Source: Promethearchaeota archaeon (GTDB taxonomy: Archaea; Asgardarchaeota; Lokiarchaeia; Sigyniarchaeales; SOKP01). Taken from it: 64,000 nucleotides of DNA. Positions 24 through 30,059 of the stretch are shown here, one piece after another. The notes beneath the pieces were generated by a model that saw only the letters and a list, made by a program, of their open reading frames with translations, searched no databases and was not told the origin of the DNA. The stretch lies in the NCBI GenBank assembly GCA_019058445.1, contig JAHPZA010000002.1, positions 128,415 through 192,414 on the forward strand, given 5' to 3'. Each line of letters opens with the position of its first letter. The first letter of the stretch is position 1. A program made the translations under genes and the position numbers.

Positions 24-1154
24 ATGAATCGTACGCGGAAAGCTGAAAAACGTAAGAAAAGAAAAATTATTTTATTGTTTATTTTAGGTTTCGCTATCGG
101 TAACATCTCTACAAATATTGTATCATTTTTTTTTCAGGAAAAAGTCACTCACATATATATCATATATAGTTCTGAAAAGGCAAGCTGGATGACCTATGCT
201 TATTCAGAGTTTTTAGAAGAGTGGAATATGAAGCACCCTGATGATAAGATAATAATACATATGCATCCTTATGGTTCATCGGACTCGATGATAAGCATTT
301 TGAACGGAGAAATAACACCGACAATATGGAGCCCTGCAAGCTCCATATGGATGCCCCTATTAAATGAAAAATGGAAAGAATATATGGATACAGATAAAGA
401 TATTGTAGATATTGATGAAGCTGTAAAAATTATTTTTTCTCCTATAGTAATTGCCACATGGGAGGATTTTAACAAAACTCATAAAATTCATGGATTTTCC
501 GATTTATATGAGTTAAATAAAGATGATGATGTGGAAGTTAAAATGGCCCATACTGATCCAAGATTGTCAAATTCGGGATTTATGAGCACAATAATGGCAT
601 TATCTGCTAGCTCTGGAATCGATACTAAAGATTTAGAAATGGACGATTTAACAGATTCAGAAAACCAAAAATGGTTAACTACATTTGAATCTAGCGCTGT
701 TATGTATGGAAAATCTACAGGATTTTTGGCTAGGTACATGCAAGATGGAGGTCCAGACAAATTAAATGTAGCCTTTCTCTATGAGAATTTAATCAAAGAT
801 ATTTCAAGTGAAGCGGAGGGAGGTAAAGTTATTGCTATATATCCAGAAGAGGGTACGATGTATAGTGATCATCCCTTTTGTATTTTAGATGCAGACTGGA
901 TTTCACCAAAACAACGAGAAGTAGCAGAGGAATTCCTAGATTTTCTGGAGGAAAGTAAAACTGTCAAAGATGCTATGGATTATGGTTTTAGACCAATCGA
1001 TCAATCAATAGAATTAGACAAGGATGTGTTTGATTATGATGATAATGGAATTGCATATAATTTGACTGTTCCTGAATTAAAAACGCCTGATGATGGAGAT
1101 GTATTAGAAAGAATCCCAGATCTATGGTTGCTTTGTAAAGCAACAGCGTATTAA
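24..1154 (+). CDS. ABC transporter extracellular substrate-binding protein with N-terminal membrane anchor
   Basis: Basic N-terminus then one TM helix. Motifs IWSPASSIW, SPIVIA, HTDPRLSNSG, YENL and AIYPEEGT..SDHP are typical of a class II SBP subfamily. Directly upstream of a permease. Confidence 0.8.
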   Translation: MNRTRKAEKRKKRKIILLFILGFAIGNISTNIVSFFFQEKVTHIYIIYSSEKASWMTYAYSEFLEEWNMKHPDDKIIIHMHPYGSSDSMISILNGEITPTIWSPASSIWMPLLNEKWKEYMDTDKDIVDIDEAVKIIFSPIVIATWEDFNKTHKIHGFSDLYELNKDDDVEVKMAHTDPRLSNSGFMSTIMALSASSGIDTKDLEMDDLTDSENQKWLTTFESSAVMYGKSTGFLARYMQDGGPDKLNVAFLYENLIKDISSEAEGGKVIAIYPEEGTMYSDHPFCILDADWISPKQREVAEEFLDFLEESKTVKDAMDYGFRPIDQSIELDKDVFDYDDNGIAYNLTVPELKTPDDGDVLERIPDLWLLCKATAY

Positions 1155-2850: not shown

Positions 2851-3996
2851 CTGCCAAGTATAGAACTCATGAATGTAACTAAAACATTTGATGATGGGAA
2901 AGTTCTTGCTGTTGACAATATTTCTTTAATAATAAATGATGGAGATTATATATTTCTGCTTGGACCAAGTGGTTGCGGTAAAACTACCACATTACGAATG
3001 ATTGCAGGCCTAGAACAGCCAACAGAGGGAAAAGTGTTGATTGACGGTAAAGATGTTGAGGGAGTTCCGCCTGAAGACAGAGATATGGGATTTATATTCC
3101 AGCATTTTGAAATATTCGATCAAATGACTGTTTGGGAAAATGTTACCTTTGGACTGGAAATGCGGGGATATGAGGAGGATTACATCATTAAAGAAGCCAA
3201 AAAAGCATTAAAAACAGTTGAGTTATTAGAGTATGCTGATGAGTACCCTTCGATTTTTGGTAATCCAGGATTGCAAAAATTAGGAATAGCAAGGGCCATA
3301 GCAACTGGGGCTAAAATTCTTATTATGGACGAACCACTAGGGTCTTTAGATCCCAAAGTTTCAAAAGTGTTTCGTCATGAATTAAGGAACCTCATTAAGG
3401 ACTTAGGTCTTACTGCTATACATGTTACGCACAATCAAGAAGAAGCAATGGCAATTGCAGATAAAATTATTGTTATGAGGGCAGGAAGGATTCTTCAAAT
3501 GGGCACACCATATGAATTATATGAAAATCCAAAAAGCATATTTGTTGCCAATTTTTTAGGAGAAACAAATTTTTTTCAGGGTTTTGTTCTAAAATTGCTC
3601 GGAGATGGAATAATAAAAATTTGGACTCGTTTAGGAGGTCCCAAATTATTTTGCAATGATTATGGTAATGGATTTAACTTAGATGATAATATCGTTATAG
3701 CATTTCGGTATGAGGATATTTACCTATTTCCTTTAAATTATAATTTTGAAAAGAGCCGCTATGATTGGTCTAAAATGGAATTTTTTAAAGCCGTCTTAAA
3801 ATCCAAGAGATTTATAGGGAGTACTAAAAGGTTTTATTTAGCTTTAGACAATGATGATAAATTCTTATCAACAAAACCGGGAACTTTTGTTGAAAACTAC
3901 AAACCCGGAGAAGAATTAATCGTGGGTATCCACCAAGACGACATTCATGTATTTAAAGCCCCTGATGACCTTATGTATGAATTATCTTTAATGTAA
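2851..3996 (+). CDS. ABC transporter ATP-binding subunit 1 (degenerate signature motif; probable CTG start)
   Basis: Walker A GPSGCGKT, Q-loop FQH, Walker B ILIMDEP, H-loop VTH; signature reads FGNPG. The ORF track starts at ATG 2869, but in-frame CTG 2851 follows the SD GGAGGTGA. Confidence 0.9.
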   Translation: MPSIELMNVTKTFDDGKVLAVDNISLIINDGDYIFLLGPSGCGKTTTLRMIAGLEQPTEGKVLIDGKDVEGVPPEDRDMGFIFQHFEIFDQMTVWENVTFGLEMRGYEEDYIIKEAKKALKTVELLEYADEYPSIFGNPGLQKLGIARAIATGAKILIMDEPLGSLDPKVSKVFRHELRNLIKDLGLTAIHVTHNQEEAMAIADKIIVMRAGRILQMGTPYELYENPKSIFVANFLGETNFFQGFVLKLLGDGIIKIWTRLGGPKLFCNDYGNGFNLDDNIVIAFRYEDIYLFPLNYNFEKSRYDWSKMEFFKAVLKSKRFIGSTKRFYLALDNDDKFLSTKPGTFVENYKPGEELIVGIHQDDIHVFKAPDDLMYELSLM

Positions 3997-29402: not shown

Positions 29403-30059
29403 TTAAATTATGGACTGGTAAAATTTAAATACTTCATCAGCAGCTTGTGTATCATATCCCCAGTAGAAATGATCACATCTCTCTAGGATCTTAAAATCCT
29501 TTGGATCGTTATAAAAATCGTAATGGCTCTGAAAATTACTGTAATTGGCCACATCATCTCTATCTCCTTGAATAAACAATTTCGGTTTAGTTGATTGGGA
29601 TAATTTTTTATATTTCGTACCCATAAAATCCCAGGGAAATGAAATAGAAGTATATCCTATTATCTTTTTGGAGTGATTAACTGTAGAACATCCAATAGCA
29701 GCTCCATAGGAATATCCACAGATTAAGATTTTCTCGACTTGTTTAGTATTGATTAAAAAATCGATGCACGCTTTAACATCACTTATTTCTCCTCTTCCAC
29801 TTGAATGTGAACCAGTAGATCTTCCAACGGCTCTGAAGTTAAAGCGTAAGCAAGAGATATCATTTCGCTTAAAGATATTAAAGACCGCAGAAATAACATT
29901 GTTGTACATATTTCCCCCAAATTCCACTTAACTGAGAAACTCTCAATCAATCTGAGGATGCGGGTGGCATACGAGAACTGCGGAGGATTTATTTGAGCTT
30001 GATTCAAAATATTCTGCTTCTAGTTGAATATCATCATTAGATATGAAAATATTTCCCAT
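29403..30059 (-). CDS. Alpha/beta-fold hydrolase (HPHPxxGGxM family) in two parts: exon 1 30059-29952, exon 2 29921-29403; 208 aa if spliced
   Basis: ATG 30059 gives 36 codons ending VCHPHPQ, then a 30-nt insert with in-frame TGA and TAA, then FGGNMYNNV..RFNFR..GYSYG..GDRDD..DHFY. The catalytic Ser/Asp/His motifs are intact. Confidence 0.8.
29922..29951 (-). other. Candidate bulge-helix-bulge (tRNA-endonuclease-type) mRNA intron, 30 nt
   Basis: Minus-strand RNA: CCUC [AG|A] UUGAUUGAGA GUU UCUCAGUUAA GUGG [AA|U] UUGGGGG. Cutting after the second nucleotide of each 3-nt bulge restores CAG UUU (HPHPQ-FGGNM). Confidence 0.65.

What the first reader, a model, noticed from the sequence alone, without database searches (positions are those of the whole stretch)
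29922..29951. Candidate bulge-helix-bulge intron in a protein-coding gene of a probable Asgard archaeon
Seen: the minus-strand hydrolase reads ATG(30059)...C-H-P-H-P-Q, then ATTGATTGAGAGTTTCTCAGTTAAGTGGAA (30 nt, in-frame TGA and TAA), then F-G-G-N-M. Removing it restores the family motif HPHPxxGGxM and a 208-aa protein with intact GYSYG/D/H motifs and no other lesion. The RNA can fold as central helix CCUC/GUGG (3 G-C pairs plus one U.U), 5' bulge AG|A, a 10-bp intron hairpin UUGAUUGAGA-GUU-UCUCAGUUAA, 3' bulge AA|U and an imperfect exon stem (CCCGCAU/UUGGGGG). Both departures of the hairpin from a perfect DNA inverted repeat are G.U-compatible. Established: archaeal EndA cuts after the second nucleotide of each 3-nt bulge and RtcB ligates; those two cuts give exactly this 30-nt excision. 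Archaeal mRNA introns are rare, the classic case being crenarchaeal cbf5. Inference: mRNA splicing by the tRNA machinery, possibly regulatory, in the lineage related to eukaryotes. Caveats: the motif is relaxed, a competing helix UCCUCAGAUU/AAUUUGGGGG exists, and CTCAGTT inside the insert duplicates the junction, so a template-switch insertion is an alternative origin.
Basis: partly seen in the sequence, partly recalled or inferred. Interest (0 to 1): 0.92.

Follow-up and report, generated by a model that had tools for sequence, protein, structure and literature searches.

The report
tRNA-type mini-intron splitting Asgard hydrolase gene
A 30-base insert that breaks an ordinary hydrolase gene of a Lokiarchaeon (Asgard archaea) is very probably a real intron cut out of the mRNA by the tRNA-splicing enzymes: the same site is interrupted in many relatives whose genes selection keeps intact, and in the papers I could search only one archaeal gene (cbf5) is reported to be spliced this way.

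Summary
Window 29922-29951 (minus strand) is a 30-nt insert with in-frame TGA and TAA between ...HPHPQ and FGGNM... of a 208-aa alpha/beta hydrolase.

It is not an artefact or a private lesion:
- Contigs from two other studies span it without gaps.
- 23 of about 105 orthologous loci from Promethearchaeota (Lokiarchaeia) MAGs and metagenomes carry an insert at the same junction. These give 18 distinct sequences in two unrelated intron families, 30, 32, 33 or 34 nt long.
- Lengths that are not multiples of three rule out read-through.
- Intron-bearing genes show dN/dS of 0.09-0.22, like intronless ones.
- Sixteen of the 18 variants form a canonical bulge-helix-bulge motif whose cuts restore the frame. 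Stems are kept by compensatory changes, including one pair of synonymous exon sites.

The window's copy has one U.U mismatch in the central helix. The tRNA introns I could validate in this genome are equally relaxed. EndA and RtcB are encoded.

The same genome holds more such mini-introns: CODH, an EF-2-like GTPase, an OYE reductase and three in acetyl-CoA synthetase.

This scan has noted the class before, on other parts of this genome and in other archaea. No RNA data were available, so splicing itself is inferred.

The parts
29952..30059 (-). Exon 1 of the alpha/beta hydrolase gene (36 codons, ATG 30059 to CAG 29954-29952, ...VCHPHPQ)
   Evidence: tblastn to orthologues aligns residues 3-36 up to this boundary.
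29922..29951 (-). 30-nt bulge-helix-bulge mini-intron (type A), with in-frame TGA and TAA
   Evidence: The same site is interrupted in 23 orthologous loci. Structure counts.
29403..29921 (-). Exon 2 (172 codons plus stop, FGGNM...GYSYG...D...H)
   Evidence: Abhydrolase_11 and other alpha/beta hydrolase families; orthologues in 35 of 41 relatives.
29954..29957 (-). Central helix, 5' strand CCUC (in exon 1)
   Evidence: Pairs with 29924-29927. C-G, C-G, U.U, C-G in the window. All four positions pair in G003, L077, L085 and L091.
29951..29953 (-). 5' bulge A-G|A; predicted cut between 29952 and 29951
   Evidence: Geometry. This cut, paired with the 3' cut, is the only register that restores the frame.
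29928..29950 (-). Intron hairpin h': 10 bp (29950-29941 with 29937-29928), loop GUU
   Evidence: 96.7% of cells are paired across six type-A orthologues, and two pairs show changes on both sides.
29924..29927 (-). Central helix, 3' strand GUGG (in the intron)
   Evidence: The second position is U, C, A or G in different orthologues.
29921..29923 (-). 3' bulge A-A|U; predicted cut between 29922 and 29921
29959..29964 (-). Outer exon helix h, 5' strand CCCGCA (Pro/His codons)
   Evidence: Pairs with 29914-29919. There is one G.G mismatch in the window; G002 and G003 have six contiguous pairs.
29914..29919 (-). Outer exon helix h, 3' strand UGGGGG (Phe/Gly codons)
   Evidence: The first Gly codon is GGG in 14 of 15 intron-bearing junctions against 15 of 56 intronless ones.

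Best explanation
Window 29922-29951 is an archaeal bulge-helix-bulge (BHB) intron inside a protein-coding gene.

Proposed mechanism (inferred, not observed):
- In the pre-mRNA, Pro/His codons of exon 1 pair with Phe/Gly codons of exon 2 to form the outer helix.
- CCUC of exon 1 pairs with GUGG at the 3' end of the intron to form the central helix.
- The rest of the intron folds into a 10-bp hairpin. This leaves two 3-nt bulges on opposite strands.
- The splicing endonuclease EndA cuts after the second nucleotide of each bulge.
- RtcB joins the exons to give ...CAUCCUCAG|UUUGGGGGA..., and probably circularises the 30-nt intron.
- Only the spliced mRNA encodes the 208-aa hydrolase with its HPHPxxGGxM loop. 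Unspliced mRNA ends translation after 38 residues.

Shown here: the motif, its conservation and covariation, purifying selection on the interrupted gene, insert lengths that ignore the reading frame, and the presence of the enzymes. Inferred: the cleavage and ligation themselves.
For: 1. Same-site inserts. They occur in G000, G002, G003 and G008 of one genus and in 23 of about 105 orthologous loci overall, giving 18 distinct sequences.
2. Insert lengths are 30, 32, 33 and 34 nt. In every case exact removal, and nothing else, restores ...HPHPQ|F/Y/M-GG....
3. Sixteen of 18 variants give a central helix with all four positions paired, 3-nt bulges and both flanking helices (for two of them with the cuts moved 1 nt, which alters only a synonymous Gln codon). 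The two exceptions are the window and G002.
4. There are two unrelated intron sequence families, A and B, and both fold this way.
5. Pairing is kept in 92.5% (A) and 96% (B) of cells, against 32-74% when partners are slid. Changes on both sides occur in the hairpins and at an exon pair of synonymous third positions, A-U to G-C. RNAalifold recovers the motif.
6. dN/dS is 0.09-0.22 between intron-bearing genes, against 0.19-0.27 for intronless pairs. The window gene against its nearest relative gives 0.087, and its longer branch is longer in dN and dS alike.
7. The intron changes more slowly than synonymous exon sites, for example 2 of 30 positions against pS 0.42.
8. Exon synonymous sites inside the helices are fixed in intron-bearing copies.
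9. EndA and RtcB are encoded.
10. All four tRNA introns I could validate in this genome have only 3 of 4 central pairs. The three at non-canonical tRNA positions are 27-31 nt with 8-9-bp hairpins, so a relaxed motif of this build must be processed here.
11. Other genes of the genome are split by the same kind of element at junctions where Pfam profile coordinates continue exactly or nearly.
12. The insert is in DNA contigs of two other studies, so it is not an assembly error.
Against: - No RNA evidence. No spliced read, no circular intron and no cleavage assay is available for this gene or this genome.
- The window's copy has a U.U mismatch in the central helix and a G.G mismatch in the outer helix.
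- Its single-sequence minimum-energy fold draws a shifted 3-bp central helix.
- Only one EndA-family gene was found in this 92.6%-complete MAG, whereas Asgard EndA is described as a two-subunit enzyme (PMC5829648).
- The covariation counts rest on few, related sequences.
Confidence: 0.85

Rival explanations
1. The intron family is genuine and spliced in relatives, but the window's own copy has begun to decay. The U.U mismatch in the central helix and the G.G mismatch in the outer helix would impair cleavage, making this allele a young pseudogene or a poorly expressed gene.
For: The window and G002 are the only 2 of 18 variants with 3 of 4 central pairs. The window also has the weakest outer helix among type-A copies. 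Its terminal branch in the protein tree is about twice that of its sister.
Against: - dN/dS on comparisons involving the window gene is 0.087-0.134, as low as elsewhere. Its extra branch length is shared by dS.
- The gene has no other lesion.
- G002 carries an independent mismatch (U.C) at the same position and is also conserved.
- The tRNA introns I could validate in this genome also have 3 of 4 central pairs.
- A very recent loss of function would leave no trace and cannot be excluded.
Confidence: 0.08
2. The insert is skipped by the ribosome. This would be programmed translational bypassing, as in phage T4 gene 60 or the byp elements of Magnusiomyces mitochondria, rather than removal from the RNA.
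For: The size (30-34 nt), a hairpin, stop codons soon after the take-off point and indifference to multiples of three all also fit bypass elements.
Against: - Bypassing needs matching take-off and landing codons. Here the take-off codon is CAG or CAA, while the triplet before the landing site is GAA, AAA, AUA, AAG or ACG, so none matches.
- Bypassing does not explain the conserved 4-bp helix with two 3-nt bulges, the exon-exon helix, or the fixed synonymous sites in it.
- The same element architecture sits in tRNA genes of this genome, where translation plays no part.
Confidence: 0.03
3. It is a DNA-level insertion with no removal: a replication template switch or a small palindromic mobile element. 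The gene would then be dead, or made as two separate pieces.
Against: - The same site is interrupted in 18 distinct sequences across deep branches, with dN/dS about 0.1 and no second lesion in any of them.
- The CTCAGTT resemblance is absent from the other variants.
- The insert has no other copy in the genome.
- A split at the HPHP/GG loop, which by family knowledge is the oxyanion-hole region, would cut the catalytic core.
Confidence: 0.03

Closest known systems
cbf5 pre-mRNA intron of Crenarchaeota (Watanabe 2002; Yoshinari 2006; Yokobori 2009, PMC2738675)
   Same: Both are BHB introns inside a protein-coding sequence, removed by the tRNA splicing endonuclease and ligase. Both are patchy across related lineages, which implies gains and precise losses.
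   Different: The gene differs (a metabolic alpha/beta hydrolase, not an RNA-modification enzyme) and so does the phylum (Asgard/Promethearchaeota). Here there are two unrelated intron families at one site, and the genome carries the same kind of element in several other protein genes. Splicing of cbf5 was shown experimentally; here it is inferred.
Non-canonical tRNA introns of Asgard archaea and Thermoproteales (Marck and Grosjean 2003; PMC11291895; bioRxiv 10.64898/2026.10.13.758758)
   Same: The motif is the same, as is the size and build. The three validated tRNA introns at non-canonical positions in this genome are 27-31 nt with 8-9-bp hairpins and often 3 of 4 central pairs. The enzymes are presumably the same.
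   Different: The host is an mRNA. The exon half of the motif is made of codons (CCN Pro with GGN Gly), so it constrains synonymous sites. Splicing must also compete with translation.
HAC1/XBP1 unconventional mRNA splicing in eukaryotes (IRE1 plus tRNA ligase/RtcB)
   Same: A short intron in an mRNA is defined by RNA structure, cut by a protein endonuclease, and the exons are joined by the tRNA ligase. It changes the reading frame or the product.
   Different: The endonuclease differs (IRE1, not EndA/TSEN), the cut-site structure differs (two stem-loops, not a BHB), and the eukaryotic case has a known regulatory role.
Programmed translational bypass elements (T4 gene 60; Magnusiomyces byps)
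   Same: Short hairpin-forming inserts with stop codons lie inside otherwise intact genes, and their lengths are not multiples of three.
   Different: Matching take-off and landing codons are required there and are absent here. A BHB geometry is conserved here and is not needed there.

Membership tests
Archaeal BHB (splicing-endonuclease) intron | [quoted passage not shown] | tested here: met
   The window has bulges AGA and AAU with helix CCUC/GUGG at 3 of 4 pairs (relaxed). Sixteen of 18 orthologous variants have 4 of 4. RNAalifold recovers it.
Archaeal BHB (splicing-endonuclease) intron | Flanking helices: h from exon sequence, h' from intron sequence | tested here: met
   h' is 10 bp. h forms 4 of 6 pairs in the window (5 of 7 counting one further C-G pair) and 6 contiguous pairs in G002 and G003.
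Archaeal BHB (splicing-endonuclease) intron | Cuts after the second bulge nucleotide give an exact, functional product | tested here: met
   The predicted cuts remove exactly 30 nt (30-34 in relatives) and restore HPHPQ|FGGNM in frame in every variant. This is an in-silico test only.
Archaeal BHB (splicing-endonuclease) intron | The host encodes EndA and an RNA ligase (RtcB) | tested here: met
   PF01974 at C9:770595-770843 (68 bits) and PF01139 at C1:114713-116020 (574 bits). A second EndA subunit was not found.
Archaeal BHB (splicing-endonuclease) intron | Spliced RNA or excised (circular) intron observed; cleavage by EndA in vitro | not testable with these tools
   No RNA run holds this DNA.
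Pseudogene / inert insertion | Relaxed selection and accumulation of further lesions | tested here: not met
   dN/dS is 0.09-0.22 in intron-bearing pairs, with no other stop or frameshift.
Programmed translational bypass element | Matching take-off and landing codons flanking the gap | tested here: not met
   CAG or CAA against GAA, AAA, AUA, AAG or ACG in the variants.
Group I / group II self-splicing intron | Catalytic RNA core (hundreds of nucleotides) | tested here: not met
   The insert is only 30 nt, and there is no Rfam match at the site.

The most novel reading that the evidence does not exclude
Lokiarchaeial genomes such as this one may carry a whole population of about 30-nt BHB mini-introns. 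On this reading the introns sit not only in tRNA genes but in many protein-coding genes. They tend to lie in conserved motifs where Pro (CCN) and Gly (GGN) codons can pair. They are repeatedly gained, exchanged between lineages and precisely lost. Routine, spliceosome-independent mRNA splicing would then be part of gene expression in the closest prokaryotic relatives of eukaryotes.

The hydrolase site would be a hot spot invaded by two different intron families. The mismatch between the intron tree and the gene tree would reflect intron mobility.
Probability: 0.5. Interest if true: 0.93.

Novelty: new member of a known kind. Interest (0 to 1): 0.8.

Why it matters
In the papers I could search, splicing of a protein-coding message by the tRNA machinery is documented for one archaeal gene, cbf5, and work on Asgard introns deals with tRNA genes only.

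This case shows, by comparative evidence strong enough to stand without RNA data, that an ordinary metabolic gene of an Asgard archaeon depends on such splicing. It also shows that the site has been occupied for a long time by two intron families, and that the exon half of the splicing motif shapes synonymous codon choice.

Together with the other split genes found in the same genome, it points to mRNA splicing as a regular step of gene expression in Lokiarchaeia. That bears on three things:
- Genome annotation: such genes are called as fragments or pseudogenes.
- How splicing coexists with coupled transcription and translation.
- Ideas on how intron-tolerant gene expression arose before eukaryotes.

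Tried and rejected
- RNA evidence: no listed holder of this DNA is an RNA run, so expression and splicing could not be examined. Reads were laid on DNA contigs.
- First genome-wide scan: it timed out and was rewritten.
- Relaxed BHB criteria alone are uninformative. They gave 46,173 frame-joining hits. Only ranking by energy plus Pfam continuity separated real cases.
- False or unresolved positives from that scan:
  - C4 near 257,500: a glycine-rich repeat.
  - C9 near 156,200: the second "exon" does not look coding.
  - C2 rc-index 85101: a hairpin inside an actin-like coding sequence.
  - The sulfatase-like gene on C4 near 155,140: only the C-terminal part of the domain was recovered, so it is undecided.
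- A strong BHB-like hairpin at window 318-349 (minus strand) lies inside an uninterrupted plus-strand ORF (24-1154). I judged it to be chance.
- Validating tRNA introns by in-silico splicing plus ARAGORN recovered only four, probably because most tRNA genes here have several introns.
- Rfam found nothing at the site.
- A second EndA subunit was not found with PF01974, even at E = 10.
I dropped both.
- None of the intronless relatives is close enough to an intron-bearing one (dS at least 0.14) to be read as a spliced-RNA-derived contig.

Full report
**What is there.** On the minus strand, the frame opening at ATG 30059 reads 36 residues ending ...VCHPHPQ. Then come 30 nt (29951-29922) with in-frame TGA and TAA. 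Then FGGNMYNN... runs for 172 codons to the stop at 29405-29403.
- The C-terminal part matches alpha/beta-hydrolase families.
- An uninterrupted orthologue (211 aa) is closest to the solved hydrolases 3TRD, 2I3D and 2FUK, which read CHPHPxxGGxM at this place.
- The insert has no other copy in the 4.6-Mb, 31% G+C genome.
- The genome belongs to Promethearchaeota (Lokiarchaeia), judging from the titles of its nearest relatives.

**It is real DNA and not private to this strain.** Contigs from two other studies (X9 record 16, X5 record 10) run across 29922-29951 with no gap.

A search of 41 related genomes found the gene in 35. In four of the ten genomes of the window's genus searched, the N- and C-terminal parts are separated at exactly this codon boundary: G000, G002 and G003 by 30 nt, and G008 by 33 nt. 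The others, including G007 at 84% identity, are continuous.

Adding species-representative genomes and metagenome contigs gave about 105 loci in which both halves of the gene could be placed. Of these, 23 have an insert at the junction:
- ten of 30 nt, nine of 33 nt, three of 32 nt and one of 34 nt;
- 18 distinct sequences in all;
- removing exactly the insert restores ...HPHPQ|(F/Y/M)GG... in every case.

The 32- and 34-nt inserts put the two halves of the gene in different frames. So no reading that leaves the insert in the message can work.

**The inserts are BHB motifs.** They fall into two sequence families with no detectable similarity.
- Type A is the window's type (six distinct sequences). 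Central helix CCUC/GNGG, bulges AA|A (AG|A in the window) and AA|U, a hairpin of up to 10 bp, and an outer helix made of CAC-CCN-CA with U-GGG-GG.
- Type B (twelve distinct sequences). Central helix UCCU/GGGA, one nucleotide further upstream, bulges CA|A and AA|A, and a hairpin of variable sequence. It gives the same spliced product.

Sixteen of the 18 variants have all four central positions paired (counting G.U wobble pairs) plus both flanking helices. For two of these (L079, L080) this holds with the cuts placed one nucleotide upstream, which changes the product only at a synonymous Gln codon. The window (U.U) and G002 (U.C) have a mismatch at the third position.

Across the type-A copies the intron base opposite that U is U, C, A or G.

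Counted on the alignments, 92.5% (A) and 96% (B) of cells are paired, against 32-74% when the partners are slid by 1-3 columns. Changes on both sides keep pairs in the hairpins: U-A to A-U and G-C to A-U in type A, U-A to C-G in type B. In type B they also keep an exon-exon pair made of two synonymous third positions, CCA/UUU to CCG/UUC or UAC.

RNAalifold, given only the type-A alignment, returns the outer helix, the central helix, the 5' bulge and the hairpin. These counts rest on few, related sequences. I read them as consistent support, not proof.

**The interrupted gene is functional.**
- Pairwise dN/dS between intron-bearing genes is 0.09-0.22. For intronless pairs of similar distance it is 0.19-0.27.
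- For the window gene it is 0.087 against its nearest relative (L077) and 0.134 against G002.
- The window's longer branch is longer in dN and dS alike, so there is no sign of relaxed selection.
- The intron evolves more slowly than synonymous exon sites: 2 of 30 differences against pS 0.42 (G000/G002), and 1 of 30 against pS 0.54 (L085/G002).
- Exon synonymous sites that lie in the helices are nearly fixed where the intron is present. The first Gly codon is GGG in 14 of 15 against 15 of 56. The second Pro codon is CCT in 15 of 15 against 35 of 56. The first His codon is CAC in 14 of 15 against 24 of 56. Relatedness inflates these contrasts.

**The machinery and the local precedent.** The genome encodes an EndA catalytic subunit and RtcB. 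ARAGORN finds few tRNA genes here, and nearly all of them carry introns.

I could validate four tRNA introns by removing them in silico. They are 20, 27, 28 and 31 nt long, and the three at non-canonical tRNA positions have 8-9-bp hairpins. All four have only 3 of 4 central pairs. So a relaxed motif like the window's must be processed in this organism.

Published work assigns Asgard archaea an EndA with the loop that gives broad substrate range (PMC5829648) and reports very intron-rich tRNA genes (PMC11291895; bioRxiv 10.64898/2026.10.13.758758).

**The hydrolase is not alone in this genome.** I scanned the genome for BHB-like sites whose removal joins two open frames. The hydrolase intron ranked 4th of 7653 by energy. 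Other top hits were checked against Pfam.
- A CODH/prismane gene has a 32-nt intron where the profile continues exactly, 457|458.
- An EF-2-like GTPase and an Old Yellow Enzyme-type reductase each have a 30-nt intron with near-continuous profile coordinates.
- Acetyl-CoA synthetase lies in four collinear pieces separated by three inserts of 30-32 nt. Removing them restores CTAD|IGWITGHSY, VGEP|INPEAW and DTYWQ|TETGG.

The scan caught only one of the three ACS introns, so it undercounts.

**History.** On a protein tree of 103 orthologues, intron presence is patchy. Parsimony needs 10-11 changes, and at least 6 remain when only strongly supported branches are counted. Several intron-bearing genes have intronless sisters at 97-100% support. 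This means repeated precise loss, repeated gain, or both, as described for cbf5 (PMC2738675).

The intron sequences group G000 with G002 and L085, and G003 with L077. The gene tree instead pairs G000 with L077. Support for that gene-tree node is only 80%, so this is a hint of intron exchange and not a result.

**Rivals.**
- An inert insertion or pseudogene is contradicted by the age, spread and purifying selection.
- Translational bypassing would tolerate the lengths and stop codons. But it needs matching take-off and landing codons, which are absent. It also does not explain the conserved bulge-helix-bulge geometry or the exon helix.
- Self-splicing introns are excluded by size, and Rfam finds nothing.
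- The one rival I cannot dismiss is that this particular allele, with its two mismatches, is spliced poorly.

**Known and new.** The searchable literature reports BHB splicing of a coding sequence only for crenarchaeal cbf5, and treats Asgard introns only in tRNA genes.

Earlier notes of this scan, unchecked by me unless stated, describe the same class in other genes of this genome. These include the CODH intron that I found independently. They also describe it in many other archaeal genomes, and two of those notes claim RNA contigs that lack the intron.

I therefore file this as a new member of a known kind. The wider pattern is what makes it interesting.

Noticed in passing
L023:1302-1333 (G000 C6:396802-396833, minus strand): A 32-nt canonical BHB intron in a CODH/prismane-family gene: 7-bp outer helix, GAAU/GUUC central helix, 8-bp hairpin. 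Pfam PF03063 runs 3-457 in the 566-aa upstream part and 458-512 in the 75-aa downstream part, which lies in another frame.
   Followed up: yes
L025:2616-2645 (G000 C10:684116-684145, minus strand): A 30-nt BHB intron (central helix ACAG/CUGU, 9-bp hairpin) between the G1 (DHGKTT) and G2 (ERGITI) motifs of an EF-2-like GTPase. The exons are 61 and 689 aa, and GTP_EFTU profile coordinates are nearly continuous.
   Followed up: yes
L026:2373-2402 (G000 C6:165873-165902, minus strand): A 30-nt BHB intron in an Old Yellow Enzyme-type NADH:flavin oxidoreductase fused to a pyridine-nucleotide disulfide reductase. PF00724 runs 1-105 before the insert and 119-338 after it.
   Followed up: yes
L024: about 3713-3744, 3371-3400 and 3264-3293 (G000 C10, minus strand): The acetyl-CoA synthetase gene lies in four collinear pieces separated by three mini-introns of 32, 30 and 30 nt. 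Removing them restores CTAD|IGWITGHSY, VGEP|INPEAW and DTYWQ|TETGG. Only the middle one passed my motif scan.
   Followed up: partly
L027:858-887 (G000 C10:5858-5887, plus strand): A 30-nt BHB-like insert (central helix UGGA/UCCA, 9-bp hairpin) near the start of a flavin-reductase-like gene. The downstream part matches PF01613 from profile position 35. The 49-aa upstream part is too short to score.
   Followed up: partly
L028:643-673 (G000 C4:155143-155173, plus strand): A 31-nt insert with a perfect outer helix lies ahead of a sulfatase-family ORF that holds only profile positions 126-301. The N-terminal part of the domain was not located, so this could be a multi-intron gene or a pseudogene.
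   Followed up: partly
G000 C6:1054866 (+), C1 rc-index 179371, C10 rc-index 246758, C9 rc-index 136980: tRNA-Leu, tRNA-Val and tRNA-Trp genes become recognisable only after removal of introns of 31, 28 and 27 nt at non-canonical positions. tRNA-Gln has a 20-nt intron at about position 38. All four have 3 of 4 central pairs. ARAGORN finds only 23 tRNA genes in the genome, 19 of them with introns.
   Followed up: partly
Loci L001, L003, L004, L077, L085 (hydrolase intron, type A): The intron sequences group G000 with G002 and L085 (1-2 differences in 30) and G003 with L077 (3 differences). The host-gene tree instead pairs G000 with L077, and L085 is distant (exon pS 0.54). This could mean intron exchange between lineages or old intron alleles. 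The gene-tree node has only 80% support.
   Followed up: partly
L021:1219-1827 (G000 C9): Only one EndA-family gene (202 aa, closest to the M. jannaschii enzyme) was detected in this 92.6%-complete MAG. The literature describes a two-subunit enzyme in Asgard archaea.
   Followed up: partly
window 318-349 (minus strand): A strong BHB-like hairpin (11-bp stem, 4 of 4 central pairs) lies antisense inside an uninterrupted plus-strand ORF (24-1154). I judged it a chance palindrome in coding sequence.
   Followed up: yes
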